A stretch of 47,294 nt of DNA from Parcubacteria bacterium C7867-007 (GTDB lineage Bacteria > Patescibacteriota > Minisyncoccia > Phycocordibacterales > Phycocordibacteraceae): contig LFCQ01000006.1 of assembly GCA_001189195.1 (NCBI GenBank), positions 122,841 through 170,134 of the forward strand. Reading direction: 5' to 3'. Below are positions 27,748-43,728 of the stretch, piece by piece; position 1 is the stretch's first letter; every line of letters starts with the position of its first letter. The notes under the pieces are model-generated. The model saw nothing but the letters and a program-made list of their open reading frames with translations. It was not told the DNA's origin and made no database searches. A program made the translations under genes and the position numbers.

Positions 27748-27786
27748 AAGTATACCCCGGCCATTTTTATAGAGTACAATTTTCGT

Positions 27787-28122
27787 ATGCTCAGCATACT
27801 TTTCTTAAAGATAGGTCTCGGGGTAACTTTTGTGCTTACAGGCTTGCTAATATTAAGTAGTAAAGATCGGTGGGTACATATGTTGCCAGGGTGGTTCGCT
27901 AGTCGTTTGTCTTCTACGCGTGGTTTTATGATAGTGACTGCTATTGCCGACATTACTCTTGGGGTGTGGCTCTTAACTGGAATCTTTACAGCCATTGCGG
28001 CTATTCTAGCGGCCATACACCTTCTAGGTGTCCTTATAATTTCAGGCAAGCATGAATTCCATGAGGTCTATCGTGACATAGGGCTCTTATTTGCTGCTGT
28101 GGCCTTGGTATTTTCGGTGTAA
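27787..28122 (+). CDS. DoxX-like membrane protein
   Basis: LKIGLGVTFV, DITLGVWLLTG, YRDIGLL. Confidence 0.7.
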   Translation: MLSILFLKIGLGVTFVLTGLLILSSKDRWVHMLPGWFASRLSSTRGFMIVTAIADITLGVWLLTGIFTAIAAILAAIHLLGVLIISGKHEFHEVYRDIGLLFAAVALVFSV

Positions 28123-28154
28123 ATGACTAGAGGAGTCTAGCTACCAGAACCCTC

Positions 28155-28184
28155 TTGATTAGGTATACCCCTTAGGGGTATCAT
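28155..28184 (+). promoter_or_regulatory. csoR-copA promoter with CsoR-type operator
   Basis: TTGATT (-35), TATCAT (-10); palindrome ATACCCC-TTA-GGGGTAT at 28165-28181 matches the C-tract/G-tract CsoR/RcnR operator type. Confidence 0.8.
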
Positions 28185-28190
28185 AAACTT

Positions 28191-28457
28191 ATGAAGTTAG
28201 AAACTAAGAAGCCAATACAGAATCGTCTTCGCCGCATCGAAGGCCAGATCCGAGGCCTCCAAAAGATGGTTGAGGAAGATACGTACTGCATCGACGTCAT
28301 CACGCAGACCTCTGCCATCAAAAGCGCGCTTTCAAGCGTCGAAGATCTGTTGCTTGAGAACCATCTCGATACCTGCGCTTCTGACCAAATGAAATCTGGG
28401 AACGTCACTAAGGCAAAACAAGAGATTCTTGCGGTATATCGGCTTAAACGTAAATAA
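28191..28457 (+). CDS. csoR: Copper-sensing transcriptional repressor (CsoR/RcnR family)
   Basis: [29 protein letters not shown] (C-H-C Cu ligands). Confidence 0.92.
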
Positions 28458-28459
28458 AT

Positions 28460-30754: not shown

Positions 30755-30757
30755 CCC

Positions 30758-31774
30758 ATGGAAACCTATACTTTTCACGTCCAGGGAATGCACTGCAAGT
30801 CTTGCATCGCGCTTACAGAGGGCGAGCTTATGGATCTGCCCGAGGTTACCCACGCGGAGTCCTCGCTTAAAACCCACACGGTTGATGTTGTGGGAGAGTT
30901 TGGTGGACGTACTCAAGACGAGATCGTGGCGTATCTCACCGAACCGCTCAAGAGGCATGGCTATAGTCTCCATCTTGAGAAACAAGCGCATAAGGTCAAG
31001 TGGGCAGACTTTACCTATGCCATACCAGTAGCCGCAGTCTTCATTGCGCTGTTCATCGTTCTACAAAAGCTCGGCATCGTTAATCTGGCTGGTTCTGGGG
31101 AAATGACCTATGCAACCGCGTTTGTCATTGGACTCGTCGCTTCAGTATCGACCTGCATGGCAGTAGTTGGCGGGCTCGTACTCTCCATGTCAGCGAGCTA
31201 TGCAAAGGAAGGACAAGGAGTGCGACCGCAAATACTATTCCATGTTGGCCGTCTCGTATCCTTCTTCGTTCTCGGCGGTGTGATTGGCGCGCTTGGCTCA
31301 GCTTTCCAGCTCGGAGGTACTGGCACATTTGTCCTCAGCTTTATAGTAGCCGTGATCCTGCTCATACTCGGACTTAACCTGCTTGACGTGTTCCCATGGA
31401 CGAAGAAATTGCTACCAACCCTTCCAGCTTCGTTCAGTAAGCATGTTACTCGTTTCAAGGGAGTAAACAGTACGCTTACGCCTCTTCTTATAGGTGCGGC
31501 GACATTCATTCTCCCGTGCGGCTTTACCCAATCGATGCAGCTCTACAGTCTTACGACAGGCAGCTTCCTTCAAGGCGCGCTTACCATGACAGTCTTCGCT
31601 TTAGGAACGCTTCCGATCCTCGCGCTCCTCAGCTTCAGTTCGCTCAGTATCAAGAAGCTGCAGACGGGTGTGTTCTATAAGACGGCGGGGCTCGTCGTTA
31701 TATTCTTCGGACTTTTTAACCTCATGAATAGCTTGGTCGCCGTCGGCCTAATTCCGCCATTATTTAGCTTCTAA
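30758..31774 (+). CDS. HMA domain + DsbD_2/TauE-like membrane protein
   Basis: GMHCKSC; STCMAVVGG; LPCGFTQ; FALGTLP. Confidence 0.88.
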   Translation: METYTFHVQGMHCKSCIALTEGELMDLPEVTHAESSLKTHTVDVVGEFGGRTQDEIVAYLTEPLKRHGYSLHLEKQAHKVKWADFTYAIPVAAVFIALFIVLQKLGIVNLAGSGEMTYATAFVIGLVASVSTCMAVVGGLVLSMSASYAKEGQGVRPQILFHVGRLVSFFVLGGVIGALGSAFQLGGTGTFVLSFIVAVILLILGLNLLDVFPWTKKLLPTLPASFSKHVTRFKGVNSTLTPLLIGAATFILPCGFTQSMQLYSLTTGSFLQGALTMTVFALGTLPILALLSFSSLSIKKLQTGVFYKTAGLVVIFFGLFNLMNSLVAVGLIPPLFSF

Positions 31775-31788
31775 CGTATACTATTCTT

Positions 31789-32178
31789 ATGAAGAAATTA
31801 CCTATTGTCGCTTCAGTGCTCCTCGCTGCTCTAATCATTGGCGGGGCAATAGCCTTTGGTGGAAAGTCCACATCGTCTAATCAAATGGTTCAGAATGTCT
31901 CGATGGAGGGGGAGAAGCAAATAATCGAGATTGATGCGAAAGGGGGCTACTCGCCCAAGCTCACTACAGCGAAAGCCGGCGTACCAACCATTCTTCGTTT
32001 GAAGACGAATGGCACTTATGATTGCTCGTCTGCGGTGTCGGTGCCAGCCCTCGGATTCCAGAAGACATTAGAAGCGACTGGCGTCACTGATATCGAAGTG
32101 TCTTCTCAACTGGCGCAAGGAACCCTCGAGGGAGTCTGCGCGATGGGAATGTATAACTTCTCAGTGAAATTTCTCTAA
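31789..32178 (+). CDS. Cupredoxin-like (CupA-type) protein
   Basis: N-terminal TM, GGYSP, AKAGVP, YDCS, CAMGMY. Confidence 0.85.
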   Translation: MKKLPIVASVLLAALIIGGAIAFGGKSTSSNQMVQNVSMEGEKQIIEIDAKGGYSPKLTTAKAGVPTILRLKTNGTYDCSSAVSVPALGFQKTLEATGVTDIEVSSQLAQGTLEGVCAMGMYNFSVKFL

Positions 32179-32186
32179 CAAAAAGT

Positions 32187-32636
32187 ATGCGTTCTCAATC
32201 GATTACAACTCGAGAAAAAAAATCACGATTGCAAACTGTACTCAAGAAGTTTAGTGCAATCTTGATTGGAAGTTTTCTTACGCTTGGAATATTGCTTTGC
32301 TTTAGTTTCGTATCAGGTATCTCAAATCATTCCATAGCTGAAGTACCGGACCATTCCTGCACTTCTTCTGAAGGATCAAGCCCATGTGACTCAATCAGCG
32401 AACATATTTCATATTGGCAAACAATTTCAACGGCAGTTTTCACTGACAATTTTCTTCTACTTTTAGTTAGTGCCGCATTGTTATTTTTGTGGATTTCTCA
32501 TCGCACTAAATTTACACACAAGGGCTACGCCCTATTCCATCCGACTAAGCCGAGTATAAACCTTGGTCTGATACTCTCACGCAACCCCCTTCAAGAGGCA
32601 TTCGCATCGGGCACCATTCATAGTAAGGCTTTTTAA
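32187..32636 (+). CDS. Hypothetical 2-TM protein with Cys/His loop
   Basis: TM - HSC(x8)C..ISEHISYWQ - TM - LQEAFASGTIHSKAF; AT-rich. Confidence 0.6.
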   Translation: MRSQSITTREKKSRLQTVLKKFSAILIGSFLTLGILLCFSFVSGISNHSIAEVPDHSCTSSEGSSPCDSISEHISYWQTISTAVFTDNFLLLLVSAALLFLWISHRTKFTHKGYALFHPTKPSINLGLILSRNPLQEAFASGTIHSKAF

Positions 32637-32676
32637 TTACACCGAGTCGTATTGATTAGCGTTAATTTAACTACTT

Positions 32677-33078
32677 ATGGACATAAAGACGAATACTAAA
32701 ATAGTAATTTCAGCAGTCGTGGGTATTATTCTGGGTGCTGGAGGTGTGATGGCCTTTTCTCAAAAGAATGAGATTGCCATGCCATCAATTTCTGGTGACG
32801 CAGTGGTTGGTCATAACACACAACAAGATCCTATGATGTCTTCACTAGCAGGAAAGAAAGGAGAGAGCTTTGATCGTGAGTTTATTATTCAGATGATTGC
32901 GCATCATCAAGGAGCAATTCAGATGGCAGAAATGGCACTTGAAACCTCAAAACGACCTGAAATTAAAGAACTTTCAACGGAAATTATCGCTGCTCAGAAG
33001 ATGGAAATTCAGAAAATGCAGGAATGGCATCTGGCGTGGTTTGGTTCGTCAGTACCAGTAACCCCTACGGGGCAATAA
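32677..33078 (+). CDS. DUF305 domain (CopM-like) protein
   Basis: FDREFIIQMIAHHQGAIQMA, IIAAQKMEIQKM. Confidence 0.88.
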   Translation: MDIKTNTKIVISAVVGIILGAGGVMAFSQKNEIAMPSISGDAVVGHNTQQDPMMSSLAGKKGESFDREFIIQMIAHHQGAIQMAEMALETSKRPEIKELSTEIIAAQKMEIQKMQEWHLAWFGSSVPVTPTGQ

Positions 33079-33095
33079 TTGTAGTTAACAAATGT

Positions 33096-33848
33096 ATGGA
33101 AACAGATAATAAAATAGAAGTCGCATCTGCGCTGAGTAAGTACTCAACACCAATCTCAGTGTTAGTGGGTGCAATTATTATTGCAGCTGCGCTTACTTTC
33201 GGTGATGGAAAACTTCCTCAGCAGGACGTAGCAGCGAATCCAGGCCAGGCCCAGCCAGACGCTGCGGCACTTCAAAAGCAATTAGAAAATATTGCACCTA
33301 TCACTGCTGAAGACCATATTCGAGGGAATCCAGATGCACCTGTAAAAATTGTTGAGTACTCAGATACGGAATGCCCATTCTGCAAGAGATTTCACCCTAC
33401 GATGCAACAAGTAATGAGTGAATATGGTGCAGACGGCAAAGTTGCGTGGGTGTATCGGCATTTCCCTCTTGACCAGCTTCATAAGAAGGCTAGGAAAGAA
33501 GCCATTGCGCTTGAGTGTGCTGGAGATCAAGGTGGCGATGATGCTTTCTGGAAATATACAGATCGACTCTACGAAGTGACACCCTCAAACGACGGCCTTG
33601 ATCCATCGGAACTTCCAAAGATCGCTAGTGAGGTCGGACTTAATGTCACCACCTTCAACACATGTCTTGCAAGTGGAAAGTTCGATGCACATGTTGAAGC
33701 AGACGCACAAAATGCTATTGCAACCGGCGGAAGCGGAACCCCGTGGAGTATAGTTATCGGCAAGAATGGCAAGAAGTACCCACTTTCGGGTGCCCAGCCG
33801 TATGAATCAGTAAAGCAGATAATTGACCTCGCTTCACAAGGCAAATAA
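33096..33848 (+). CDS. DsbA family thioredoxin-fold oxidoreductase
   Basis: GNPDAPVKIVEYSDTECPFCKRFH, YRHFPL, GTP, GAQP. Confidence 0.92.
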   Translation: METDNKIEVASALSKYSTPISVLVGAIIIAAALTFGDGKLPQQDVAANPGQAQPDAAALQKQLENIAPITAEDHIRGNPDAPVKIVEYSDTECPFCKRFHPTMQQVMSEYGADGKVAWVYRHFPLDQLHKKARKEAIALECAGDQGGDDAFWKYTDRLYEVTPSNDGLDPSELPKIASEVGLNVTTFNTCLASGKFDAHVEADAQNAIATGGSGTPWSIVIGKNGKKYPLSGAQPYESVKQIIDLASQGK

Positions 33849-33850
33849 AG

Positions 33851-34393
33851 ATGCTGTTCCAAGCGTTGCAAAAGGTATTGCGGAGGCCGACATACATGCT
33901 ACTTGCTCTGACGGTAAGTCTGGCGGTCTTTGCACTCGCTGTGTTACTGCCAAACGCTAGTTTAATTGGTATCATCGTCAGCTCGCCTAACATATTGCTC
34001 TCCCAAAAGCTTGGAATACCATTTAGTTTGTTAGGTTCTATTATTACTAACTTCACTATCCTTTCTGCGATCTCGACAATTGCTATCGCAACTCTGTTCG
34101 GAATAAATGTTGCCATGGTGCTTTATTTCCTGAGGCGGAAAATTAGCGAAGTAAAGAAGATCGGAATTACTACTGGGTTCTTGGGTGTTACCAGTGGGAT
34201 TATCGGCATTGGATGTGCCGCTTGCGGATCACTCCTGCTTACAAGTATTCTCTCGCTGTTCGGTGCATCAAGCATACTCGCATTCCTGCCCCTCGCAGGC
34301 GGTGAATTCGGTATCCTTGGCGTCATCTTACTCGTGATATCTGCTCACAGTATAGCCAACCAAATCCAGCATCCTGCAATCTGTAAAATTTAA
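33851..34393 (+). CDS. 4-TM membrane protein with CxxC
   Basis: GIGCAACGS motif and C-terminal Cys; 2 nt after dsbA. Confidence 0.7.
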   Translation: MLFQALQKVLRRPTYMLLALTVSLAVFALAVLLPNASLIGIIVSSPNILLSQKLGIPFSLLGSIITNFTILSAISTIAIATLFGINVAMVLYFLRRKISEVKKIGITTGFLGVTSGIIGIGCAACGSLLLTSILSLFGASSILAFLPLAGGEFGILGVILLVISAHSIANQIQHPAICKI

Positions 34394-34402
34394 CTCAACT
34401 AT

Positions 34403-34942
34403 ATGGAAAATAGTCAGCCTAATGAATATGTAAGTAGCAAAGAACGGAGAGAACGTAAACAGCAAGCAAAACTGGAAGCAAAAAATTCAGTGCTTCAAAA
34501 GCGGCGCGCAGCAAAAGTTATCCGATGGATCGGTTGGAGTTTGGTTGGCGCGGCGATTATTGGAAGTTTAGTTTGGTTCGTACTATCCCAGCCTAAGACC
34601 TCTGATTCTGAAATCATCTCTCGCACTGGTATTCACTGGCATCCGGAGCTAGAGATCTATGTCAAAGGCGCGAAGGTGGAATTTCCCGCCAATATAGGCA
34701 TTGGAGTAGCACATCAGCCTGTCCATACTCACGAAGATGCTGTAGAAGGAGTTGTACATCTTGAATTCGAAGGACTAGTTCGTAAAAGCGACACTACGCT
34801 AGGACAGTTCTTTAAGAGCTGGGGCAAAGATATTCGCTCACTTGGAGCGAATGTAACGATGACTGTCAATGGTCAGGAAAATATCGATCTTGAGAATTAT
34901 CAAATGCAGGACAAGGATGAAATTGTGTTGAGGTATGAGTAA
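34403..34942 (+). CDS. Membrane-anchored His-motif protein
   Basis: Basic N-terminus, TM, IHWHP, PANIGI, PVHTHE, VVHLE, TLGQFF. Confidence 0.7.
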   Translation: MENSQPNEYVSSKERRERKQQAKLEAKNSVLQKRRAAKVIRWIGWSLVGAAIIGSLVWFVLSQPKTSDSEIISRTGIHWHPELEIYVKGAKVEFPANIGIGVAHQPVHTHEDAVEGVVHLEFEGLVRKSDTTLGQFFKSWGKDIRSLGANVTMTVNGQENIDLENYQMQDKDEIVLRYE

Positions 34943-35001
34943 TACGGAACGACAATGCTCTCGTACTCCACTGAGTATCAAAACGCTAACAGCTTAAGAA
35001 T

Positions 35002-35778
35002 ATGAAACTGAAAAAGATAGCTTTGATTGGGCTCTTTGTTGTGCTGGTAGGAATTACAGGACTCATGCTTTTACAAAGCATGAAAAGTACTTTGGGAACG
35101 CAAACAGAGTCTCAGACTGAAGATGAGGTTGTTCTGGAAGTACCTGCACAGATAGCCGATCAAGAAGTCTTAATCAGTCGAGTTACGATGCCTAGTAACG
35201 GATGGGTTGTGGCACGGGGTATCGAAGATGGAAAACTCGGTCAGATTATAGAAATAAGCCCGTTTCTTGAAAAGGGTGAGTATAAAAAGGTAATTATTCC
35301 CCTCGGCGAATTCTATAATGGCGAAGAACTCATTGCCGTTATTTATGAGGATCAAAATGCTGACGGTATCTTCAATGGCCTCGATCTCCCCAAACTGGAT
35401 TCAAAAGGTCTTATGATAGCTCGCAGTGTAAAGACCGGAGAAGAAGTCGAAGGTCTTTCTGAGGCAGGTATGAGTGGGATGCTACATAATATGCCTGGAA
35501 TGGCAGACATGATCCAGATTCGATATACGAATACTGGCTTCGTTCCCAAGAATATTGAGGTGCCCGCAGGTTCTCTCGTTGAGTTCATTAATGAAAGTGA
35601 CCGGGAAATGTGGGTAGCATCCGATACTCATCCAACCCATGAACGACTCGCAACGTTCGACCAGTTTAGATCCTATCCTAAAGGCGGAGTGTATCGATAT
35701 CTTTTTGATAAGCCGGGAACCTGGCCGTATCACGATCACATCAGTCCAGCAGATGAGGGGATAATCACCGTACGCTAA
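35002..35778 (+). CDS. Membrane-anchored two-domain protein with C-terminal cupredoxin
   Basis: Met-rich linker, GFVPKNIEV, WVASDTHPTH, FDKPGTWPYHDH. Confidence 0.75.
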   Translation: MKLKKIALIGLFVVLVGITGLMLLQSMKSTLGTQTESQTEDEVVLEVPAQIADQEVLISRVTMPSNGWVVARGIEDGKLGQIIEISPFLEKGEYKKVIIPLGEFYNGEELIAVIYEDQNADGIFNGLDLPKLDSKGLMIARSVKTGEEVEGLSEAGMSGMLHNMPGMADMIQIRYTNTGFVPKNIEVPAGSLVEFINESDREMWVASDTHPTHERLATFDQFRSYPKGGVYRYLFDKPGTWPYHDHISPADEGIITVR

Positions 35779-35846
35779 TAAGCCACGATAATACTTGACT
35801 TTATTACTAAATATGATAAAGTACAATTCAATTAGGATTCTAAGTT

Positions 35847-36458
35847 ATGATTTCCGCACTGAAAACAGTAGGATTCTTTATCCTAACCGCCCTTATCTTC
35901 TTACTGTCATTTGCAGTGCTATTTGCATTTGATTTGGTTCCAGAGAGCAAATCCGAACTTACAGCGAGTGCTGAAAAAGTGGTGGACGTTCCAGCTGTAG
36001 TTGAAAGGGTTGAAGAACCTGCTCGTATCGTTGCTACAGACATTGGGTTAGACGCTTCTATCGTCAACCCGACAAGCAAAGATATAGCCGTGCTGGATAA
36101 AGCGCTCCTCTCAGGAGCGGTGCGCTACCCTGAAACGGCGCTTTTGGGAGAAGATGGGACAGCACTTTTGTTTGGGCACTCCAGCTATCTGCCTTTAGTA
36201 AAAAACAAGAACTATCAAATCTTTAACGATGTTCAAGAGCTTGAGAAAGGCAATATTGTGAGCGTGTACTCAGGCACGCGCGAGTATCGCTACGAGGTGG
36301 TGAGTGTTGAGCAAGCGAAAGCAACAGCTGATCGTATCAATCTCGAACAGAATGGTCGCTTTCTGAAGCTAGTTACATGTAACACCTTCGGTGCGAAAGA
36401 AGATCGGTTTGTCGTGACCGCCAAGTTCGTTGGAGTATATGAAACACAAAGCTCTTAA
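35847..36458 (+). CDS. Sortase
   Basis: N-terminal TM, FGHSS, LKLVTC, R (EDRFVV) catalytic triad. Confidence 0.88.
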   Translation: MISALKTVGFFILTALIFLLSFAVLFAFDLVPESKSELTASAEKVVDVPAVVERVEEPARIVATDIGLDASIVNPTSKDIAVLDKALLSGAVRYPETALLGEDGTALLFGHSSYLPLVKNKNYQIFNDVQELEKGNIVSVYSGTREYRYEVVSVEQAKATADRINLEQNGRFLKLVTCNTFGAKEDRFVVTAKFVGVYETQSS

Positions 36459-36584
36459 CTTTTAAGATATATCTGTGGCGTCGGCAGGTCGGTTTCAAGG
36501 CGGAATCAACTTTGCATATTGAGTTATTAGCTTCTAAAGCAAATAACTAACTCCAGGACGTGTGATACTTTTAGTACGTAATCT

Positions 36585-37457
36585 ATGAACAGACACTCCC
36601 ACGACAGTCAGGGAAACATAAAGATTGCGCTCTTTCTCAATATTGGTTTTACGATTATTGAGCTTATCGGAGGTCTACTTACGAACAGTCTCGCTATACT
36701 CTCGGACGCGCTTCATGACTTTGGAGACACTATTGTTCTCTCGCTCGCGTGGTATGCCGAGAAGAAATCAAAGCAGGGTCCAGACGAGAAGCGCACCTAC
36801 GGGTATGCCCGACTTTCCGTATTCTCCGCACTTGTTTCAGGTGCTGTCCTAATCGGTGGTTCTCTTTTCATCATCTCTCAAGCCATTCCGCGTCTCTTAA
36901 ACCTTGAAGCAGTGAATGCGCCAGGCATGATGGTACTTGCTGTCATTGGAATTATCTTTAACGGCATTGGCGCACTTCGTTTAAAGAAGGGAGAAGGTAT
37001 CAGCGAACGAGTGCTTTCATGGCATCTCTTTGAAGACGTGTTTGGATGGACGGCGATACTTATTGGTGGCGGGTTGATCTATCTCTTCGACCTGCCGATT
37101 CTGGACCCCGTACTCACGATTGGCTTCACGCTCTTTATCCTCTGGGGAGTTATCCGCTCAATGGGAGAAGTGAGCAACATTCTGCTTGAAGGCGTACCGC
37201 AGCAGGTACACCTGAAGGCGCTCAAGACCGACATACTCCAGTTTGAGGGTATACTCGGTCTCCACGATGTCCATGTTTGGTCTCTTGAAGGCAAGACCAA
37301 TGTATTGAGTGGGCATATCATCATAAAGCCGCAGAGCGTTGATGAGGGACGAGCCATACAACAGAACGTAAAAGCCATGCTCAAGGAGAAACACGATATT
37401 GAGCATGCAACGATAGAATTGGAGACCGATGGAAGTTGCGAAGAGAAGAATTGCTAA
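36585..37457 (+). CDS. czcD: Cation diffusion facilitator (Zn/Co/Cd efflux)
   Basis: NSLAILSDALHD, TYGYAR, WHLFED, LLEGVP, HDVHVWSL, HATIELE. Confidence 0.9.
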   Translation: MNRHSHDSQGNIKIALFLNIGFTIIELIGGLLTNSLAILSDALHDFGDTIVLSLAWYAEKKSKQGPDEKRTYGYARLSVFSALVSGAVLIGGSLFIISQAIPRLLNLEAVNAPGMMVLAVIGIIFNGIGALRLKKGEGISERVLSWHLFEDVFGWTAILIGGGLIYLFDLPILDPVLTIGFTLFILWGVIRSMGEVSNILLEGVPQQVHLKALKTDILQFEGILGLHDVHVWSLEGKTNVLSGHIIIKPQSVDEGRAIQQNVKAMLKEKHDIEHATIELETDGSCEEKNC

Positions 37458-37752: not shown

Positions 37753-38739
37753 GTGTCGCCACAGTCCGTGGACAGCGTCTTTCCTTTTCCACATACCGCA
37801 CATGCTCAAGGAGCAGAAGATGTAATCCTCCATGACCCTTCCATAGACCTTCTTGAGGCAGCTATAAACTCTGACCCAAACCCGGATAAGGGTGATCATG
37901 AAATGGAGGTCGCAGGAGGCATGGCGCTTCTTCCACACGGAGACCTTCCCGAAGGCGAAGCTGAAGTTTCAAGCTCGAAAGCTTCTAAACCTAAGAAGAC
38001 AGGTATTGCTATCTACACAGTGCAGGAAGGCGACTCGCTCTCTGAGATTGCTGAAGAATATGGCGTATCCACAAAGACCATTCTCTGGGCGAACGATATT
38101 CGTGATGCAAGCACCATTCGTATTGGGGATGATCTCATCATTCTTCCGGTCTCTGGGGTGCAGCATAAAGTTGCAAGCGGAGATACCCTTCAATCTATCG
38201 CCAAGAAGTATGGCTCTGACGTAAGCGATATTGCGCTCTACAACGGAATAAGCGAGTCCAAGGGGCTTATTGCAGGTTCTGAGATCATCGTACCTGGTGG
38301 TGCATTCCCCTCGGCTCCTTTAAAGAAAGTGGCGAACTCAGCTTCATCTAAGAAAAGCACTCCTGCGGCTAAGTATTCTAGTCCGTCTAGCTCATCAGGT
38401 AAGTTAGGAAACCCACTTCCAGGTGGAGTAATCACTCAGGTAAATCACGGATATAACGCTGTGGACATAGACGGAGAAACTGGAGACCCTATTTATGCTT
38501 CAGCAAGCGGCTCGGTCATCATTGCCAAGGGTGGAGGAGGATATAACGGTGGCTATGGAAATTATATCGTAATTGAGCATGGCGCAGGTGTTCAGACTCT
38601 CTACGCACATATGTCGAGTCTCGCTGTATCAGGCGGAACGGTTGATAAGGGTGAGGTTATCGGATATGTGGGGAACACGGGTAAATCAACGGGCTCGCAT
38701 CTGCATTTTGAAGTCCGCGGAGCAATTAATCCCCTATAA
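37753..38739 (+). CDS. LysM x2 + M23 peptidase (true start probably upstream)
   Basis: YTVQEGDSLSEIA, HKVASGDTLQSIA, HGYNAVD, TLYAHM, STGSHLHFEV. Confidence 0.9.
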   Translation: MSPQSVDSVFPFPHTAHAQGAEDVILHDPSIDLLEAAINSDPNPDKGDHEMEVAGGMALLPHGDLPEGEAEVSSSKASKPKKTGIAIYTVQEGDSLSEIAEEYGVSTKTILWANDIRDASTIRIGDDLIILPVSGVQHKVASGDTLQSIAKKYGSDVSDIALYNGISESKGLIAGSEIIVPGGAFPSAPLKKVANSASSKKSTPAAKYSSPSSSSGKLGNPLPGGVITQVNHGYNAVDIDGETGDPIYASASGSVIIAKGGGGYNGGYGNYIVIEHGAGVQTLYAHMSSLAVSGGTVDKGEVIGYVGNTGKSTGSHLHFEVRGAINPL

Positions 38740-38825: not shown

Positions 38826-39030
38826 TTAGCCAAGACCTAACCCCTAGGATTCCAATCCTAGGATATGGTCGAAAATCCTAGTAGAGATCAAAGGACTCCC
38901 AGTCAGAGTCACTCTACTAGGTCATATCTGGAAACAGGTATGGGTCTGGCCGAAAGGTTGGATCGCGATGGCTGGGAGCCTTTTGATTATCTCTTGGGGC
39001 TCTCTGCTACTTAAAAACCTAGTAGAAAAT
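38826..39030 (+). ncRNA. Candidate structured RNA / 5' leader
   Basis: Multiple stems including an 18-bp helix, two GAAA-tetraloop hairpins and G-U pairs; family not recognised. Confidence 0.55.
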
Positions 39031-39038
39031 AATTACGT

Positions 39039-39518
39039 ATGGATACGCCAACAGCGTCCGCAAAGAAACCTCTTCTTAAGAAGTGGTGGGTCTGGGTACT
39101 TATCGTACTCGGCATCTTTATTATCATAGGTTCGATAGGCGGCTCTGATTCTTCAAGTTCAGGAAGCCAGAGCGCGAAGGAGGAAGTGAAGGTCGAGCCA
39201 GCTCTTACGGTCACGGCTTTCAAAATGGCTGCCGAGTACAAGGAAAACGAAGTCGCTGCAGACGCAAAGTACAAGGGCAAGCTCGTCGAAATATCAGGCA
39301 GCGTAGATACCATCGGCAAAGATGTTCTCGATACGCCGTTTATCGCCTTCTCAACTGAAAATCAGTACGAGATCATCAATCGAATTCAGTGTATGTTTGG
39401 AAAGAACGATGTGGAAGTGCTCTCAAGTGTCTCCAAGGGTCAGAAGATTACCCTTCGCGGTACTGTCTCCGGTGCTCTCGGAAACATCATTGTTAAAGAT
39501 TGCGAAATCATAGAGTAG
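39039..39518 (+). CDS. Membrane-anchored OB-fold protein (tRNA_anti-like)
   Basis: KKWWVW + TM, YKENEVAADAKYKGKLVEISGSV, KGQKITLRG, VKDC. Confidence 0.8.
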   Translation: MDTPTASAKKPLLKKWWVWVLIVLGIFIIIGSIGGSDSSSSGSQSAKEEVKVEPALTVTAFKMAAEYKENEVAADAKYKGKLVEISGSVDTIGKDVLDTPFIAFSTENQYEIINRIQCMFGKNDVEVLSSVSKGQKITLRGTVSGALGNIIVKDCEIIE

Positions 39519-41036
39519 CTAGAACCGGCTGTTAAATCCGAGTGGATACCACGGCCCTTCGCCATCGTCCCAGATGCTGTTTCTTCCGAGGTCGATAACA
39601 GTGATACGTGGTGTCGCTCTTCCATAGTGCTCAAGCCCATGATGGGCGAGAATCGTAAATGCATCGACTAGGTCGTCGTGCCGCTCTATGCCAAACCCTA
39701 CGAGCTGCCGGATCAGCTCCTCGCATCCATGCTTCGGGAACTTAATCTTTCCGTTCTGGATGAGCGCAGAAACCGTCATGAGTCGGGAACGTTTGTCGCC
39801 TGATACTTTTACTCCCTTGGCCCCGTATACGTCATGGGCGAGCTGGTCGAGGACCGCTTTCTGGTATCCGACCTCCTCAACCAAAATCTCGACTCGGTTG
39901 TATATCTTTTTGTTGGCGTGATACACCGCTTTGATCTGGTCGATAGTCTGCGGAAACGTAAGACGCTTGTTGATAGGGTTTGGTAGAACGTACAGACAAA
40001 ACTTATCTTCGTGCCCGCTTATGATGCCGGAGACCATCGCCGTGTAATCAGCGGTCTCTTTCTGCGAGATGGCGAGGTCGATACCTACTCCTATATCGAT
40101 AAAGTTTCGTGTTGATTCGGGAATCCCATCGTAGTAGTGAATCCAGTCAGGGTGTATGACCTGATCTTCGTCTGGGACGATATTCAGGAGGTACTCTCGC
40201 TGCCAAGCATACGGATTGCCGCTTTTCTTCCGCTCTACTTCTATATCGGCCATGGTCGGGTATTTCCCCGGCCAAGCGATCTTTTGTGATTCCGAGAGTA
40301 ATGGAAACATCTTGAATACACCTTCACGCTGACCTTCATCAATATCCTTCTTGAGATGCATCACGAGTGAATCCTCATGGAGTAGGTTTCCGATAACGAT
40401 AAGGCGCGTATTCAGTCCGCCGCCTGGTATCACTTCGCCTGTGAGCCAGTGATAGGTTTTCTGCCTTGATTCATAGGTCCGAACGGATTGCAGGTCTTCG
40501 ATGTCGTCGCAGATGATGAGATCCGGGCGATGCTGATTGTGCCGAAGTCCGCGAATACTCTGTTCCATGGACGCGACCGTAATACGTGCGCCAGTATTCG
40601 AGAATACCAAGGACGACGAACCCCATTCGTCGCTTTCTTCTTCAAAGGGCCCCAAGTCACTCTTGAGTAAAGAGTTGCTCTCAAGCTCACGCTTCAAGTT
40701 CATCATGTGCTGCTTGGCCTGAGTACGGGTTTGGAAGAACATTAGTACGAACTTCTTTTGCTGGATACCAAGAATTGACCACAGCGAGTACGAGAACGTG
40801 ACGAGCGTAGATTTACCCGAACCACGGAACGCGACGATGACGGCAAGTTTGTTCTCGCTGTCCTCGGTTATGCGGAAGATGTCTTTCTGGAACTCCGCTA
40901 TCGGGTACTGGACGTAGTGCGAGAAGTACACGTAGAAAAACATGAGGTGCGATTGCCGCGTGACGTGCTGGCGCACCGCGCGGTTCTTCGTGAGTTCCTC
41001 GAATGCATCGTCATCAAGAGGGCTGTTCTGGCTCAT
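39519..41036 (-). CDS. Phage terminase large subunit-like protein
   Basis: Walker A AFRGSGKST, IRGLR, Walker B IICDDIED, IGN coupling motif, QREY, RNase H-like GIDLAIS...DYTA, VEEVGYQ, DKRSR, HDDLVDA. Confidence 0.9.
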   Translation of the reverse strand: MSQNSPLDDDAFEELTKNRAVRQHVTRQSHLMFFYVYFSHYVQYPIAEFQKDIFRITEDSENKLAVIVAFRGSGKSTLVTFSYSLWSILGIQQKKFVLMFFQTRTQAKQHMMNLKRELESNSLLKSDLGPFEEESDEWGSSSLVFSNTGARITVASMEQSIRGLRHNQHRPDLIICDDIEDLQSVRTYESRQKTYHWLTGEVIPGGGLNTRLIVIGNLLHEDSLVMHLKKDIDEGQREGVFKMFPLLSESQKIAWPGKYPTMADIEVERKKSGNPYAWQREYLLNIVPDEDQVIHPDWIHYYDGIPESTRNFIDIGVGIDLAISQKETADYTAMVSGIISGHEDKFCLYVLPNPINKRLTFPQTIDQIKAVYHANKKIYNRVEILVEEVGYQKAVLDQLAHDVYGAKGVKVSGDKRSRLMTVSALIQNGKIKFPKHGCEELIRQLVGFGIERHDDLVDAFTILAHHGLEHYGRATPRITVIDLGRNSIWDDGEGPWYPLGFNSRF

Positions 41037-41421
41037 GAGGCTTAAGCGTTAAGTTCGCAAGCGACAACGCCTTATGGACGAGTTCTTTCTGCTCGTCCGA
41101 AAGTTCCTGAATTGTGTTCACGGTCCCTTCGATCTGCACTTTGGTGCGATACGAAGGATGGTTGTGTTTCAGCCATCCCATAACTGCGGTCATATTCCGG
41201 TCTTTGATAGCACCGATGAGCTGACCTTCTGCTAGATCGTTCACCATGAGTCTGCCTTCGAGCAGAGCGTCGTCCACGCTCTTTGCGAAGTCCGCATTCT
41301 CCGCTCGCCATCGGTATAAGGTCACACGGCTGATGCCGACCTTCTCGCATCCGACCTGAAGGATTGGTGTCTTGCGGAGTTGTTCAAGAAGCGCGGCTTT
41401 TGAGGCGTCCGACTTTTTCAT
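41014..41421 (-). CDS. Terminase small subunit-like HTH protein
   Basis: LLEQLRKTPILQVGCEKVGISRVTLYRWRAENADF HTH; AVMGWLK; overlaps the TerL start. Confidence 0.72.
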   Translation of the reverse strand: MKKSDASKAALLEQLRKTPILQVGCEKVGISRVTLYRWRAENADFAKSVDDALLEGRLMVNDLAEGQLIGAIKDRNMTAVMGWLKHNHPSYRTKVQIEGTVNTIQELSDEQKELVHKALSLANLTLKPHEPEQPS

Positions 41422-42689
41422 ACCTTCACAGCCTTCTGGCCAGTTAGCCTCTCATAGCGGCGAATGATGAGATCTACGAAGATTGGCTCGCGCTCAATCA
41501 GGTATGCAGACCGCTTCAACTGCTCGCACGCAATCAAAAGACTGCCTGAACCACCAAAGCAGTCGAGGATGATGTCAGAGGGCTTGGTACAGCGCCTCAG
41601 CGCCCTCTCATGGAGCACAGGCGGCTTCTCGGTCGGGTGTTGATATCCAGTCCCATTCAGCCGCTTTACGAGCCAGATATCGAGGAGGTCATAGATGTCT
41701 TCAAGAGTCTGATTTCCCGTGCCGATCTCCTTGTTCAGGATTTCGGAGAGATTCAGCACCTTGTCCGAGAGGTACGGCTTGCCGATTGTGCCGTACACGC
41801 ACGGCTCGTACTGCTTGTTGAACGCGCTATGCGGCGTAGGTGAGGAGTTATTCTTAATCCAGAGGCACACCCGCTTGTTCGCGATGCCGGATTCCTGATA
41901 CAGGCTCTGCAAGAGCCAGATGTACCGCTGGTCGCAGTAGGTGAAAACGTGCGCGTCTTTCTTGGTAACAGCAATCGCGTTCTTGAGACAGGAAGCGAGA
42001 AATGCTTTGTATGCCTTGTCGGTGAGGGAATCATCGACAGTGCCGCCATACGACTTCTTGCCGCCTACGCCTTTGTCGTACGAAAGCCCGATGTTGTATG
42101 GCGGGTCGGTCAGGATGGTGTCGGCTTTCTTTCCGGCCATGAGTCGTGCAAACGTATCAGGGTCGGTACTGTCCCCGCAGATGAGACGGTGCGAGCCGAG
42201 CTGGTATAAATCGCCGGTCTTTGCTTTTGGTTTCTTAATCTTTGCTAACTCCTTCTCGACATCAAACTCATCATGCTCGACCTCAAGATCGTCGAAGAGA
42301 TGCGACAGATCGGTATCATCGAAGCCGCTCGCAAGCAGGGTCTCGACATCGAACTCGTCCACGAGTTTTTGCCAGTCCCAGTCTCCGTGGATACGGTTAG
42401 AACCGAGGAGGTACTGGTCGTACTCTTTCTTCGTGAGCTTGCGGTTCGGCACACGGACCGAAATAGTCTCTTTCTCGCGTCCGAGGAGTTTCAAAACCAT
42501 GAGCCGCTGGTGCCCAGCGATCACGGTGTTGTTCTTGTCGATCACAGGAAGTTCTACGAGATCGAACTTCCTGAGACTCTTCTTCAAGTCTTCGATCTGT
42601 TTTGCGCTCATAGTGCGCGGGTTTCTGATATTAGGCACAAGGTCGGCGATCTTGCGGTTCTGGGTAGTCCAGGAGAGTTTTGCTGGCAT
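41418..42689 (-). CDS. ParB-like domain + N6/N4 DNA methyltransferase (beta order)
   Basis: NPRTM...IAGHQR (ParB-like), HRLICGDST, TDPPYN, HPTEKP, LDCFGGSGS. Confidence 0.92.
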   Translation of the reverse strand: MPAKLSWTTQNRKIADLVPNIRNPRTMSAKQIEDLKKSLRKFDLVELPVIDKNNTVIAGHQRLMVLKLLGREKETISVRVPNRKLTKKEYDQYLLGSNRIHGDWDWQKLVDEFDVETLLASGFDDTDLSHLFDDLEVEHDEFDVEKELAKIKKPKAKTGDLYQLGSHRLICGDSTDPDTFARLMAGKKADTILTDPPYNIGLSYDKGVGGKKSYGGTVDDSLTDKAYKAFLASCLKNAIAVTKKDAHVFTYCDQRYIWLLQSLYQESGIANKRVCLWIKNNSSPTPHSAFNKQYEPCVYGTIGKPYLSDKVLNLSEILNKEIGTGNQTLEDIYDLLDIWLVKRLNGTGYQHPTEKPPVLHERALRRCTKPSDIILDCFGGSGSLLIACEQLKRSAYLIEREPIFVDLIIRRYERLTGQKAVKV

Positions 42690-42849
42690 ATGAGTAAAAT
42701 GATGAATAAGCAGATTGCTCTGTACATCCAGCAAACCAACAATTTCATTTGCTCGACACGCCCGTTATCGTGAACGGAAAGAGAAATACCGCTCGTAATT
42801 GAGCCGTATTTCAAATCTTATCCACCGTCACGATGGCGTCCGGATGGCC

Positions 42850-43494
42850 TTAGGTGCGATGGATGAACACTTCGGGATTTAACATGTATCCAGATCCGCG
42901 ACGAGCGATAACAATCCGCTCCTTAATACCGAGCTGCTTCCTTGCCTCACCGTTGATGCCTTGCACCATCTTTCGTATAGCGTCCGTGCTATTACGACCG
43001 AGTTCTTCTCTCAGAGTTTCGGTAGCTATAGGCTGACGAGCACTCATTAGACGTACAAAGAGCCGTCTTCGCCCCTTGTCTTCAAACGCATATACGCGCC
43101 GCACATTAGAAACGGTCTTGGAAAGAATGGCCTGACGAGCATCAAAGGTGAGATCCGTGTCGGGAATCCGTACGGTTGTCACCAACTTAGCAGCTGTTAC
43201 CTCTGGCTTTGATTCAACCTCGGTCTGGGTAAAGATTCTGCTAGGGTATTCAACCGTTGGAATTGAATAGAAGCTCACCGACTCTCGCAGACGAGCCATT
43301 GTCTCAAGGGTAGGCCGCATAGACTCTGCCAAAGCCTGTATTGTTTTAAACATTGGCGCATATGACTCATTTATACGATCAGCTAGCTGGGTCATTTGGG
43401 CTATTGCCGGGGCAACGCGCATCATCGCTCGCTGCTGCTCTTCAAAAGCTCGCGCGAGGCTATTCTCGGAGATGGTTAGTAATGCGCCTGTCAT
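42850..43494 (-). CDS. Hypothetical protein with C-terminal winged-HTH (OmpR/PhoB-like)
   Basis: ETLREELG...AIRKMVQGIN...IVIARRGSGYML; helical low-complexity N-terminus. Confidence 0.6.
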   Translation of the reverse strand: MTGALLTISENSLARAFEEQQRAMMRVAPAIAQMTQLADRINESYAPMFKTIQALAESMRPTLETMARLRESVSFYSIPTVEYPSRIFTQTEVESKPEVTAAKLVTTVRIPDTDLTFDARQAILSKTVSNVRRVYAFEDKGRRRLFVRLMSARQPIATETLREELGRNSTDAIRKMVQGINGEARKQLGIKERIVIARRGSGYMLNPEVFIHRT

Positions 43495-43653
43495 ACCTAA
43501 ATATTACGCTACATAGTGGGGATAGGGCAACGAATGTAACGCGTACAAACTGGCCCTTTGGTGTTACATTTTATATCAATGAGGAACCCGTCCGACCCCC
43601 ATCGTTTTGCCGAATCTCAGATTAGCCGTAGGGCCCTTGTGGGGCTTGGTATC

Positions 43654-43680
43654 CTGGGGTTCTAGTCCGACCCTGCCCGC
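43654..43680 (+). repeat. Degenerate tRNA-Ser 3'-end copy (possible attR)
   Basis: ctggggttctagtccgaccctgcccgc versus cgggagttcgaatctccccctctccgc (21403-21429), 18/27 identical ungapped by hand; followed by hairpin ~43692-43719. Confidence 0.4.
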
Positions 43681-43728
43681 ACTCAAACAGTCATGGCCCA
43701 CCAGAAATGGCGGGCCATGTGAATACAA

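What the first reader, a model, noticed from the sequence alone, without database searches (positions are those of the whole stretch)
39519..42689. Intact, translationally coupled MTase-TerS-TerL operon ending with no portal gene
Seen: the MTase stop overlaps the TerS ATG (41418-41421) and TerS overlaps the TerL start by 23 nt. TerL keeps its ATPase motifs and nuclease acidic residues (GIDLA, HDDLVDA). Its stop abuts the convergent OB-fold gene stop with zero spacer (tag|cta), so no room or remnant exists for a portal. Inference: the trio is a self-contained unit. It could be a pac-type packaging hijacker (lateral-transduction or GTA-like), or a domesticated ATPase-nuclease paired with a methylase as a self/non-self or anti-phage system.
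Basis: partly seen in the sequence, partly recalled or inferred. Interest (0 to 1): 0.75.

Follow-up and report, generated by a model that had tools for sequence, protein, structure and literature searches.

The report
Terminase-carrying integrative element without capsid genes
The methylase and terminase genes are real and intact, but they form one arm of a mobile island, common in tiny groundwater-type bacteria (Patescibacteria), that carries a serine integrase and cargo genes and probably borrows a helper phage's capsid to spread.

Summary
ParB-MTase (41418-42689), TerS (41014-41421) and TerL (39519-41036) lie on the minus strand with the stated overlaps. The TerL stop abuts the stop of an OB-fold gene.

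The trio is not self-contained.
- In 113 related loci, TerS precedes TerL in 105/109 and the MTase in 93/96.
- In an independent sample of 400 Patescibacteria genomes, 45 of 48 TerL loci have one clade of large serine recombinase downstream on the same strand, 0.1-15.8 kb away.
- The window's copy of that recombinase is at 23184-24506.
- The space between is cargo. Here it holds copper/metal resistance genes, an M23 peptidase, and a LOOT RNA with an OB/Sie-like gene.

No portal, capsid or tail family matched among 256 flanking ORFs scanned. Three portal/capsid Pfam families were searched in the 99%-complete genome with working controls, and none matched.

TerL catalytic residues are invariant in 77 sequences. 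pN is far below pS for all three genes against the nearest relative. About 11% of sampled genomes carry the element, patchily and at different sites.

Best reading: an integrative, satellite-like element that packages itself with its own terminase into a helper phage's capsids. That mechanism is inferred, not shown. I found no description of it in print.

The parts
21342..21430 (+). tRNA-Ser(cga), landmark at one edge of the inserted block
   Evidence: ARAGORN and Rfam tRNA. In same-genus genome G063 this tRNA directly abuts the homologue of the 44085-44669 gene (L129). Everything between the two in the window is therefore extra DNA.
21538..22779 (+). DUF4238 gene inside the inserted block; whether it belongs to the element is uncertain
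   Evidence: Pfam DUF4238, E 1.1e-15. No homologue in the other loci.
23184..24506 (-). Large serine recombinase (integrase) of the element
   Evidence: Pfam Resolvase + Recombinase + Zn_ribbon_recom. E 2e-183 to the recombinase that follows TerL in other loci. It lies on the same strand as TerL, 15,013 nt downstream. It is the only copy in the genome.
24526..24765 (-). 79-aa ORF just upstream of the recombinase, function unknown
   Evidence: ORF only. No Pfam or PADLOC match.
24913..37457 (+). Cargo on the strand opposite to the terminase genes: copper/metal homeostasis and envelope genes
   Evidence: Pfam: CsoR-type repressor 28191-28457; P-type ATPase with HMA domain 28460-30754; HMA-DsbD 30758-31774; cupredoxins; DUF305 twice; DsbA-like; sortase 35847-36458; cation diffusion facilitator 36585-37457. 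The first gene (24913-26289) has no family, but homologues sit beside 14 other elements.
37753..38739 (+). LysM + M23 peptidase (cargo)
   Evidence: Pfam Peptidase_M23, E 2e-26; LysM, E 7e-25.
38834..38964 (+). LOOT RNA (Rfam RF03000) directly upstream of the OB gene
   Evidence: 77.5 bits against a gathering score of 46.4. The same RNA precedes the OB gene in 9 of 9 other elements tested.
39039..39518 (+). OB-fold (tRNA_anti-like), Sie-like membrane protein; cargo convergent on TerL
   Evidence: An OB-family gene follows TerL within 400 nt in 16 of 113 loci, convergent in 13 of them.
39519..41036 (-). Terminase large subunit (ATPase + RNaseH-like nuclease)
   Evidence: Against L010, pN 0.12 versus pS 0.78.
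41014..41421 (-). Terminase small subunit (HTH)
   Evidence: Adjacent to TerL in 105 of 109 loci. dN/dS 0.11 against L010.
41418..42689 (-). ParB-like domain fused to an N6/N4 DNA methyltransferase (DPPY and FGGSGS motifs in the translation)
   Evidence: Upstream of TerS/TerL in 93 of 96 loci. dN/dS 0.03 against L010.
42690..42849 (-). Intergenic leader with a long imperfect hairpin
   Evidence: RNA fold -57.4 kcal/mol, z -3.4. Not matched by the leader model R1 built from other elements. Its role is inferred only.
42850..43494 (-). 214-aa probable winged-helix DNA-binding protein, first gene of the operon
   Evidence: No Pfam or PHROG hit. It belongs to one of four families that occupy this slot. 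The members printed (window, L010, L094, L068) end in (G/H)SGY(R/M)I(N/D), an OmpR-like hallmark. The L010 member has a weak Trans_reg_C hit, E 0.0035.
43552..43681 (-). Conserved non-coding stretch at the methylase-side end of the element, with two GGGTCGGAC repeats
   Evidence: 79% identical to L010, where DNA homology starts at TGCGGGCAGGG (= window 43681) although the neighbouring genes differ.

Best explanation
The MTase-TerS-TerL operon is the conserved packaging arm of a site-specific integrative mobile element that is widespread in Patescibacteria.

The full element reads: [variable DNA-binding or regulator gene] - ParB-MTase (sometimes a second MTase) - TerS - TerL - [cargo slot, mostly on the opposite strand] - large serine recombinase. 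The window holds a large version, about 22 kb, between tRNA-Ser(cga) and the gene at 44085. Its cargo is a copper/metal resistance set, an M23 peptidase, and a LOOT-RNA/OB (Sie-like) cassette.

Proposed working (inferred):
1. The serine recombinase integrates and excises the element.
2. The element has no capsid, portal, tail, lysis or recognisable replication genes, so it cannot make particles.
3. When a helper phage supplies procapsids, the element's own TerS recognises element DNA.
4. Its own TerL cuts that DNA and pumps it into the helper's capsids, so the element and its cargo, and perhaps flanking host DNA, are transduced.
5. The co-transcribed methylase marks the DNA. It either licenses the packaging cut, as adenine methylation does at the pac site of phage P1 (recalled), or protects the DNA from restriction in the next cell.
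6. In a subfamily, the operon sits behind a promoter, a conserved leader and an intrinsic terminator. That arrangement resembles the antitermination control of lambdoid late operons (recalled).

Shown: the anatomy, the linkage, the conservation, the patchy distribution, and the lack of structural genes among those scanned. Inferred: the helper, encapsidation, the role of the methylase, and the regulation.
For: Linkage, in 113 loci:
- TerS adjacent in 105/109.
- MTase in 93/96.
- Serine recombinase on the same strand downstream in 46/65 loci that have at least 6.9 kb of flank.

Independent sample of 400 phylum genomes:
- 48 TerL loci in 44 genomes.
- 45 of the 48 have the recombinase clade downstream on the same strand and contig, at 0.1-15.8 kb.
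- 43 of the 44 TerL-positive genomes carry that clade.

The genes move as a unit:
- Two copies in one MAG (L082, L087) share 5.86 kb at 93% identity, from just upstream of the MTase to the recombinase, with different flanks.
- TerL and recombinase distances correlate (Mantel r 0.69, 1 of 1000 permutations, 53 loci).

Mobility:
- 3 of 36 other same-genus genomes have a TerL (43-51% identity), each at another place relative to trxB.
- G063 has the empty arrangement, tRNA-Ser next to the 44085 homologue.
- Prevalence is 44/400 genomes, in 41/321 genera counting the window's own genome.

Selection:
- Catalytic residues are invariant in 77 sequences at 55% mean identity.
- 50/52 matches have no stops.
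- dN/dS is 0.03 (MTase) and 0.11 (TerS); TerL has pN 0.12 against pS 0.78.
- Some TerLs carry inteins.

No particle genes:
- 0 of 137 downstream and 0 of 119 upstream ORFs hit a portal or capsid PHROG. The only structural-category rows were an 'endolysin' and one weak partial 'tail protein'.
- The own genome (99% complete) has no PF04860, PF05133 or PF05065 match, with positive controls.
- In a real relative, a Mu-like Mannheimia phage, the portal follows TerL directly.

Cargo typical of temperate elements: Sie-like proteins, restriction-modification genes, DGR reverse transcriptase with Avd, nucleases, metal resistance.

Regulation: promoter-like TTGCAA-17-TAAAAT, an invariant leader, and a 21-bp hairpin with a U run, in 23 of 100 sources.
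Against: - No helper phage, no encapsidated DNA and no excised circle was seen. None of 16 whole small contigs is circular, and laying the two available runs showed no joint.
- Known satellites that redirect packaging carry TerS alone or a whole capsid module (recalled). A full terminase without a portal has to dock on a foreign portal, which is demanding.
- No replication module was recognised, so concatemers for headful packaging are unexplained.
- Element sizes range from about 6 kb to over 20 kb, so there is no sign of a capsid-size constraint.
- 28 of 71 genomes with the recombinase clade have no TerL at E<=1e-60. One such element lacks TerL and another has unrelated genes in the TerS/TerL slot. 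The recombinase can therefore persist without the terminase.
- The methylase is the most conserved gene. That would also suit a methylase/nuclease self-versus-non-self system.
- Exact att sites were not found.
- ORFs in the related loci were called with my own simple ORF picker, not a gene finder.
Confidence: 0.5

Rival explanations
1. Mobile defence island. TerS (DNA recognition) and TerL (ATPase-nuclease) act as a restriction-like or abortive effector against incoming phage DNA, or as a decoy that spoils phage packaging. The co-transcribed methylase protects self DNA. The serine recombinase only moves the island.
For: - The methylase is under the strongest constraint of the three genes (dN/dS 0.03) and is coupled to a nuclease-ATPase.
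- Neighbouring cargo is rich in defence-type genes: Sie-like proteins, restriction-modification, DGR, nucleases.
- Distribution is patchy and mobile, as for defence islands.
- No helper phage is known.
Against: - PADLOC models match only the methylase, as a generic type II MTase, and none matches TerL or TerS.
- ParB-MTase next to terS/terL is an ordinary phage arrangement; PHROG 498 and 620 are phage families.
- TerL keeps the whole packaging-enzyme architecture with all motor and nuclease residues.
- Interference with a helper's packaging is also what satellites do, so this rival overlaps the main reading.
Confidence: 0.17
2. An integrative island in which the terminase has a job other than capsid filling, for example processing or moving element DNA during excision, copying or cell-to-cell transfer in these epibiotic bacteria. 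No phage particle would be involved.
For: - No structural genes were found, no helper is known, there is no size constraint, and no replication genes are recognisable.
- The family is confined largely to one phylum with an unusual lifestyle.
- Variants occur with tandem TerL genes or extra nuclease-like C-terminal domains.
Against: No precedent is known to me (recalled) for a TerS/TerL pair that works without a portal. The sequence gives no hint of a membrane or pilus partner.
Confidence: 0.15
3. Decaying prophage remnant: the last surviving genes of a dead phage, with no present function.
For: Terminase genes are common survivors in cryptic prophages (recalled). IMG/VR lists such contigs as viral.
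Against: - The same gene set recurs in over 100 loci without structural genes.
- 50/52 matches are intact.
- Catalytic residues are invariant.
- dN/dS is 0.11 or below.
- No phage in GenBank is closer than about 27% identity among the records listed.
- The IMG/VR contigs carry the same island architecture beside cellular genes such as ftsZ and trxB.
Confidence: 0.04
4. GTA-like system: the terminase fills particles encoded elsewhere in the same genome.
For: GTAs can have scattered genes (recalled).
Against: No Phage_portal, SPP1_portal or HK97 capsid family matched in the 99%-complete 702-kb genome, with working controls. The Mu-portal search had no working control. The element is mobile and patchy rather than vertically kept.
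Confidence: 0.04

Closest known systems
Phage-inducible chromosomal islands (SaPIs/PICIs) and capsid-forming PICIs (features recalled, not checked here)
   Same: Integrative islands that carry phage packaging genes and accessory cargo but cannot make a whole virion. They are patchy, site-specific, and a few kb to about 20 kb long.
   Different: Here both terminase subunits plus a ParB-methylase are carried, and no capsid, portal or capsid-size genes. The integrase is a large serine recombinase rather than a tyrosine one. No replication module or repressor was recognised. The hosts are Patescibacteria. Helper dependence is not shown.
PICMIs, minimalist satellites of Vibrionaceae (PMC10803314; abstract and passages read)
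   Same: A minimal size of about 6 kb, very few core genes, no capsid-remodelling genes, and protection-type side effects.
   Different: The PICMI core comprises int, alpA, iolg and a primase (the first three needed for excision, the primase for replication), and the authors found no terS homologue. The present element has the opposite set: packaging genes and an integrase, with no recognisable replication gene.
Terminase operons of tailed phages, e.g. Mu-like Mannheimia phage vB_MhM_3927AP2
   Same: TerL of the same broad family (PHROG 38), about 26% identity over 89% of the length. A TerS-like DNA-binding protein lies in front.
   Different: In the phage, the Mu-type portal and the MuF head protein follow TerL directly. 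In the element a cargo slot and a serine recombinase follow. The identity is low, so the packaging style (Mu packages integrated DNA by headful; recalled) cannot be transferred with confidence.
Phage ParB-domain DNA methyltransferases (PHROG 498/620)
   Same: The same two-domain protein, E 9e-98 to PHROG 498, placed just before terS.
   Different: It is carried by a capsid-less island. Its target motif and role are unknown.
Large serine recombinase integrases of temperate phages and islands (PHROG 95; Pfam Resolvase/Recombinase/Zn_ribbon_recom)
   Same: The same three domains, and an N-terminal YARKST motif with the presumed catalytic serine.
   Different: This is a compact clade of about 440 aa, distinct from the 500-600-aa recombinases in the same genomes. 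The scores are bimodal: E<=1e-96 against 1e-60 to 1e-73. The att sites are not defined.

Membership tests
Terminase large subunit of tailed phages | N-terminal ATPase with Walker A and Walker B | tested here: met
   GSGKST and LIICDDIED are present. K75, D177, D178 and E180 are invariant in 77 sequences. The ATPase part matches T7-type terminase structures 8dgc and 4bij at E about 3e-6.
Terminase large subunit of tailed phages | C-terminal RNaseH-like nuclease with acidic catalytic residues | tested here: met
   Pfam Terminase_6C, E 2.6e-10. D320, E387, D455 and D458 are invariant.
Terminase large subunit of tailed phages | Works with a portal, usually encoded next to it | tested here: not met
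   No portal family among 137 downstream and 119 upstream ORFs. PF04860 and PF05133 did not match the genome. Control phage: the portal follows TerL.
Terminase large subunit of tailed phages | DNA packaging activity | not testable with these tools
   Needs biochemistry or particle sequencing.
Prophage (intact or remnant) | Capsid, portal, tail or lysis genes, or their broken remains, beside the terminase | tested here: not met
   The genes are intact and under purifying selection.
Phage satellite | Integrase and site-specific integration | tested here: met
   The serine recombinase is linked in 45/48 loci. An empty site exists in G063. Several elements lie near tRNA-Ser genes. Exact att sites were not found.
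Phage satellite | Genes that redirect packaging to the element | tested here: met
   TerS and TerL are present. Their activity was not tested.
Phage satellite | Own replication module (primase/helicase and origin) | tested here: not met
   The shortest shared unit holds only MTase, TerS, TerL, OB and the recombinase. No primase or replication-initiator family appeared in the scans.
Phage satellite | Induction by, and transfer in particles of, a helper phage | not testable with these tools
   No helper was identified. Only the probable source run and one weak partial holder (0.06 of sampled words) were listed, both held as contigs.
Gene transfer agent | Structural gene cluster in the same genome | tested here: not met
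   with working controls. The PF06074 search had a silent control.
Known anti-phage defence systems (PADLOC v2) | Match of the effector genes to a system model | tested here: not met
   Only MTase_II/oMTase models match, and only on the methylase. TerL, TerS, the 214-aa protein, OB and the recombinase have none.
Large serine recombinase | Resolvase catalytic domain + Recombinase domain + zinc ribbon | tested here: met
   Pfam E 7e-18, 6e-15 and 4e-8.
LOOT RNA (RF03000) | Score above Rfam's gathering threshold over the full model | tested here: met
   77.5 bits against 46.4, model positions 1-121. Nine further copies score 50-88 bits.

The most novel reading that the evidence does not exclude
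Patescibacteria host a phylum-wide family of packaging-only hitchhikers. These are integrative elements whose conserved genes are just a DNA methylase, a complete terminase and a serine integrase. They would use their own terminase to load themselves into the capsids of unrelated helper phages, together with adaptive cargo such as metal resistance, phage exclusion and diversity-generating retroelements, and possibly flanking chromosome. That would make them a main route of gene exchange in these minimal, hard-to-culture bacteria. A full terminase without a portal would be a satellite strategy not described so far.
Probability: 0.3. Interest if true: 0.85.

Novelty: new variant of a known kind. 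Interest (0 to 1): 0.72.

Why it matters
Patescibacteria make up a large share of bacterial diversity, have tiny genomes, and are mostly uncultured. How they exchange genes is poorly known, and few prophages have been reported in them (passages read in PMC6509639).

An element present in roughly one genome in nine, carrying cargo such as copper resistance, phage exclusion genes, restriction systems and DGRs, would be a major vehicle of adaptation.

It would also extend the known range of phage parasitism. Known satellites carry TerS alone, a whole capsid module, or no packaging genes at all. This one would carry the whole terminase and nothing else of the virion.

Practical points:
- Virus-detection pipelines list these islands as viral contigs, which inflates counts of 'CPR phages'.
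- The finding places the orphan LOOT RNA in a defined genetic context.
- The compact 440-aa serine integrase clade may be of use as a tool.

Tried and rejected
- **Direct and inverted repeats as att sites.** Repeat search over 21.1-44.2 kb and short-word blast between the two ends gave only chance-level matches.
- **att site inside the 3' end of the recombinase gene.** I first read the end of DNA similarity between L082 and L087, about 45 nt before the stop, this way. I withdrew it because the C-terminal tail is conserved at protein level across copies.
- **tRNA next to the recombinase.** Only 17 of 69 loci have any tRNA downstream within the flank, though 11 of those are tRNA-Ser. This is suggestive, not a rule.
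- **Circular excised forms.** 0 of 16 whole small contigs have terminal overlaps.
- **Sequencing runs.** Only the probable source run and one weak holder were listed, and no RNA holder was listed. Laying them on 24400-44300 gave no joints and no loose ends at the element's edge.
- **Promoter/terminator scan of 38.7-44.1 kb.** Nothing above the shuffles.
- **Leader model R1.** It did not match the window.
- **More distant phage relatives with a portal.**
  - An alignment-based scan of IMG/VR returned only the same island architecture.
  - The most divergent listed representative, P0141, had no match in IMG/VR.
  - GenBank phages among the 25 listed reach only 22-28% identity.
- **Unknown proteins.** The 496-aa protein that replaces TerL in G037 has no PHROG or Pfam hit, hhalign probability 0.1% against the TerL profile, and no usable Atlas hit.
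- **Literature.** Eight searches found no description of this element. The terms covered Patescibacteria, CPR or Saccharibacteria with terminase, recombinase or integrase; 'phage satellite' with large terminase and serine recombinase; LOOT; and PICMI.
- **LOOT in print.** The main text of PMC5737381 does not discuss LOOT.

Full report
**1. The observation**

On the minus strand the window holds three overlapping ORFs.
- A ParB-domain/N6_N4 DNA methyltransferase runs 41418-42734. The ATG at 42689 is the start shared with the closest relative.
- TerS runs 41014-41421.
- TerL runs 39519-41036.

The MTase stop and the TerS start share ATGA. TerS and TerL overlap by 23 nt. The TerL stop abuts the stop of a convergent OB-fold gene, TAG|CTA at 39516-39521.

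Family assignments are firm. TerL matches PHROG 38 at E 2.7e-75 and Terminase_6C. TerS matches PHROGs 4044 and 309. The MTase matches N6_N4_Mtase at E 6e-30, with a ParB-like N-terminus. The OB gene matches tRNA_anti-like and a 'Sie-like' PHROG.

**2. The organism and the locus**

The window lies in a 702-kb, 8-contig genome that is 99% complete. Its relatives are labelled Paceibacteria or Patescibacteria.

TerL occurs once in the genome. Among 36 other genomes of the genus, 3 have a homologue at 43-51% identity. None of 24 genomes from other families of the order does. In those three genomes the gene lies far from trxB or on another contig, whereas in the window it lies 4 kb from trxB.

In genus members without the element, tsaD and trxB lie roughly 5-9 kb apart, against 26.6 kb here. 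In G063 the tRNA-Ser(cga) gene directly abuts the homologue of the window's 44085-44669 gene. So about 22.6 kb, from 21431 to 44084, is inserted DNA relative to that genome.

**3. The trio is one arm of a larger conserved element**

A scan of one genome per prokaryote species found 195 stretches that encode a relative. The best 80 have 51-82% identity, and most carry Patescibacteria/CPR-type labels ('Candidatus Saccharibacteria' being the commonest), while a few carry other or unclassified labels, some on long contigs. IMG/VR added 28 further loci.

I called ORFs with a simple longest-ORF picker and labelled them with phmmer/jackhmmer. Over 113 loci:
- TerS lies directly upstream of TerL in 105 of 109 loci with enough flank.
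- An MTase lies upstream in 93 of 96, with a second MTase ORF in 28.
- A protein of about 440 aa lies downstream on the same strand in 46 of 65 loci with at least 6.9 kb of flank. In 30 loci the gap is under 135 nt.

That protein is a large serine recombinase, with Resolvase + Recombinase + Zn ribbon domains. The window has it at 23184-24506 on the TerL strand, 15,013 nt downstream (E 2e-183).

Because those loci are limited by their flanks and are not independent, I repeated the test on an even draw of 400 genomes of the phylum.
- TerL (E<=1e-60) is in 44 of them, in 41 of 321 genera counting the window's own genome. There are 51 matches, forming 48 loci since three are tandem pairs.
- By my reading of the two place tables, 45 of the 48 loci have the recombinase clade on the same contig and strand, downstream by 0.1-15.8 kb.
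- The three exceptions lie in multi-contig assemblies.

Two copies in one MAG (L082, L087) share 5.86 kb at 93% identity, from just upstream of the MTase to the recombinase, with unrelated flanks. This is a lower bound for the unit. TerL and recombinase distances co-vary (Mantel r 0.69, 53 loci). Shared host ancestry contributes to that figure.

In 70 of 89 loci a further same-strand gene precedes the MTase. These genes fall into four unrelated families. The window's 214-aa protein belongs to a family whose printed members end in (G/H)SGY(R/M)I(N/D), typical of OmpR-type winged helices. The L010 member has a weak Trans_reg_C hit.

**4. No virion genes**

The 137 longest unlabelled ORFs downstream of TerL were scanned against PHROGs. 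They were taken from 164 ORFs of at least 150 aa, lying before the recombinase or within the flank. No portal, capsid or tail family matched.

Of 219 upstream ORFs of at least 200 aa, the 119 longest (each at most 1200 aa) were scanned. None matched either, apart from one weak partial 'tail protein' row.

The genome has no match to Phage_portal, SPP1_portal or HK97 Phage_capsid, with positive controls in known genomes. The Mu-portal search had a silent control and says nothing.

As a control for the expectation, in a Mu-like Mannheimia phage, among the nearest GenBank relatives at 26% identity, the portal and MuF follow TerL directly.

The IMG/VR 'viral' contigs show the same island order. 16 of 25 have the recombinase downstream. 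One carries ftsZ, trxB and the same tRNA-Ser/tRNA-Glu neighbourhood as the window.

**5. The genes are kept by selection**

- Walker A K75, Walker B D177/D178/E180 and nuclease residues D320/E387/D455/D458 are invariant in 77 TerLs of 55% mean identity.
- 50 of 52 matches in the phylum sample have no internal stop.
- Against the nearest relative L010 (79% DNA identity), dN/dS is 0.03 for the MTase and 0.11 for TerS. For TerL, pN is 0.12 against a saturated pS of 0.78.
- 470 clusters at 50% identity match at E<=1e-30. Some carry LAGLIDADG or Hint inteins.

**6. Cargo**

Between TerL and the recombinase lies a slot filled mostly with opposite-strand genes.

In the window these are:
- a CsoR-type repressor;
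- a copper-type P-type ATPase;
- an HMA-DsbD protein;
- cupredoxins;
- DUF305 proteins;
- a DsbA-like protein;
- a sortase;
- a cation diffusion facilitator;
- a LysM-M23 peptidase.

The OB/Sie-like gene follows, preceded by a LOOT RNA (RF03000, 77.5 bits). LOOT precedes the OB gene in 9 of 9 other elements tested.

Elsewhere the slot holds nucleases, Sie-like proteins, restriction-modification genes, DGR reverse transcriptase with Avd, transposases and ATPases.

**7. Ends and regulation**

DNA homology with L010 begins at TGCGGGCAGGG (window 43681) and covers a conserved non-coding 130 nt with two GGGTCGGAC repeats. The genes beyond it differ. That marks the methylase-side end approximately.

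The other end lies between the recombinase stop (23184) and tRNA-Ser (21430). Whether DUF4238 belongs to the element is open. I found no att repeats.

In 23 of 100 sources the MTase is preceded by four features in order:
- a promoter-like TTGCAA-17-TAAAAT;
- an almost invariant GCGTAGTAAAAAGTAGAATAGCGTA;
- a 21-bp hairpin in which 6 pairs show compensatory changes;
- a U run.

Rfam has no match. The window is not matched by this model, but it has a long hairpin in the same place (z -3.4).

**8. How it most likely works**

The anatomy has an integrase, a complete terminase, a methylase and cargo. It has no virion genes and no recognised replication genes. That fits an integrative element that depends on a helper phage for capsids and uses its own terminase to get packaged.

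It resembles PICIs in logic, but its gene set is the reverse of PICMIs. Those have excision and replication genes and no terS (PMC10803314, passages read).

The methylase may license pac cutting, as in P1, or protect the DNA after transfer (both recalled). The promoter-leader-terminator arrangement recalls lambdoid late-operon antitermination (recalled). These steps are inferences.

Points against:
- No helper, particle or circle was seen.
- A foreign portal must be matched.
- There is no size constraint.
- The recombinase clade also occurs without this TerL: 28 of 71 positive genomes.
- G376 has an element that keeps MTase and TerS but lacks TerL. G037 has unrelated genes of 124, 66 and 496 aa in the TerS/TerL slot.

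A methylase/nuclease defence role stays possible, although PADLOC matches only the methylase. A plain prophage remnant and a GTA are poorly supported (sections 4 and 5).

**9. Novelty**

Eight full-text searches found no description of such an element. Papers on CPR phages that I opened mention only ordinary phages and prophages.

I rate it a new variant of a known kind (phage-satellite-like integrative island), of above-average interest. The functional claim still needs a particle or excision experiment.

Noticed in passing
window 38834-38964 (+); also L082:10455-10572, L087:10461-10578, L015:10308-10426, L022:6256-6375, L025:10041-10162, L010:10100-10219, L059:10067-10184, L139:5676-5810, L067:10157-10283: LOOT RNA (Rfam RF03000, filed as an sRNA) always sits directly 5' of the OB-fold/Sie-like gene, on its strand, inside these elements. 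This held in 9 of 9 loci tested plus the window. It looks like a leader of that gene rather than a free-standing sRNA.
   Followed up: partly
L082:6150-6285 and 22 other loci (alignment A3, model R1): A conserved unit upstream of the methylase, with no Rfam match: a promoter-like TTGCAA-17-TAAAAT, the near-invariant GCGTAGTAAAAAGTAGAATAGCGTA, a 21-bp hairpin with a covarying inner stem, and a U run. It may be an attenuator or a short RNA controlling the packaging operon.
   Followed up: partly
window 24913-37457 (+): The element's cargo is a compact copper/metal homeostasis set: a CsoR-type repressor, a P-type ATPase, HMA-DsbD, cupredoxins, DUF305 proteins, a DsbA-like protein and a CDF transporter, with a sortase. 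A related recombinase in G435 (L160) also sits beside copper-type cargo (genes beginning with HMA-like metal-binding motifs) with no terminase within 18 kb.
   Followed up: partly
L137, L140, L143 (IMG/VR); G241:C5:87891-90960, G286:C1:69926-72824, G461:C3:269008-271994: Some elements carry two tandem TerL paralogues. Other family members are about 700 aa, with an extra C-terminal stretch that ends in a terminase-nuclease-like ...DALALTF motif. A few TerLs hold LAGLIDADG or Hint inteins.
   Followed up: partly
L158 (G037:C1:392000-411900), 7878-9941: This element has the same methylase, cargo and a 68%-identical recombinase. TerS and TerL are replaced by unrelated ORFs of 124 aa (weak MarR-like HTH), 66 aa and 496 aa. 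The 496-aa ORF has no family, fold or TerL-profile match.
   Followed up: partly
L159 (G376:C1:300000-319900), reverse strand: An element with MTase and TerS directly followed by a 194-aa opposite-strand ORF and the recombinase. TerL is missing.
   Followed up: no
L035, L039, L062, L086, L025, L158; Avd in L061: Diversity-generating-retroelement-type reverse transcriptases (PHROG 1423, E about 1e-110) recur as cargo or neighbours of these elements. One locus also has an Avd-like protein.
   Followed up: no
window 24913-26289 (+): A 458-aa ORF without any family has homologues in 14 other loci (E 1e-23 to 1e-86). In 12 of those 14 it lies upstream of the methylase on the opposite strand. It may be a further semi-conserved element gene.
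   Followed up: no
window 21196-21430; L015, L084, L094: The divergent tRNA-Glu / tRNA-Ser(cga) pair next to trxB is a recurrent neighbourhood for these elements in unrelated genomes. 11 of the 17 nearest tRNAs found downstream of the recombinase (one per locus) are tRNA-Ser.
   Followed up: partly
window 37134-37736: In the probable source run, the assembly graph breaks into short alternative contigs here, between the CDF gene and the M23 peptidase gene, with several variant letters. This suggests strain-level variation inside the cargo.
   Followed up: no
L094:3582-5560 (IMG/VR contig): Between tRNA-Ser and the element's first gene lie four small minus-strand ORFs. By eye, two of them look like TIR-type proteins (N-termini such as ...FISHSW...). 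This was not tested.
   Followed up: no
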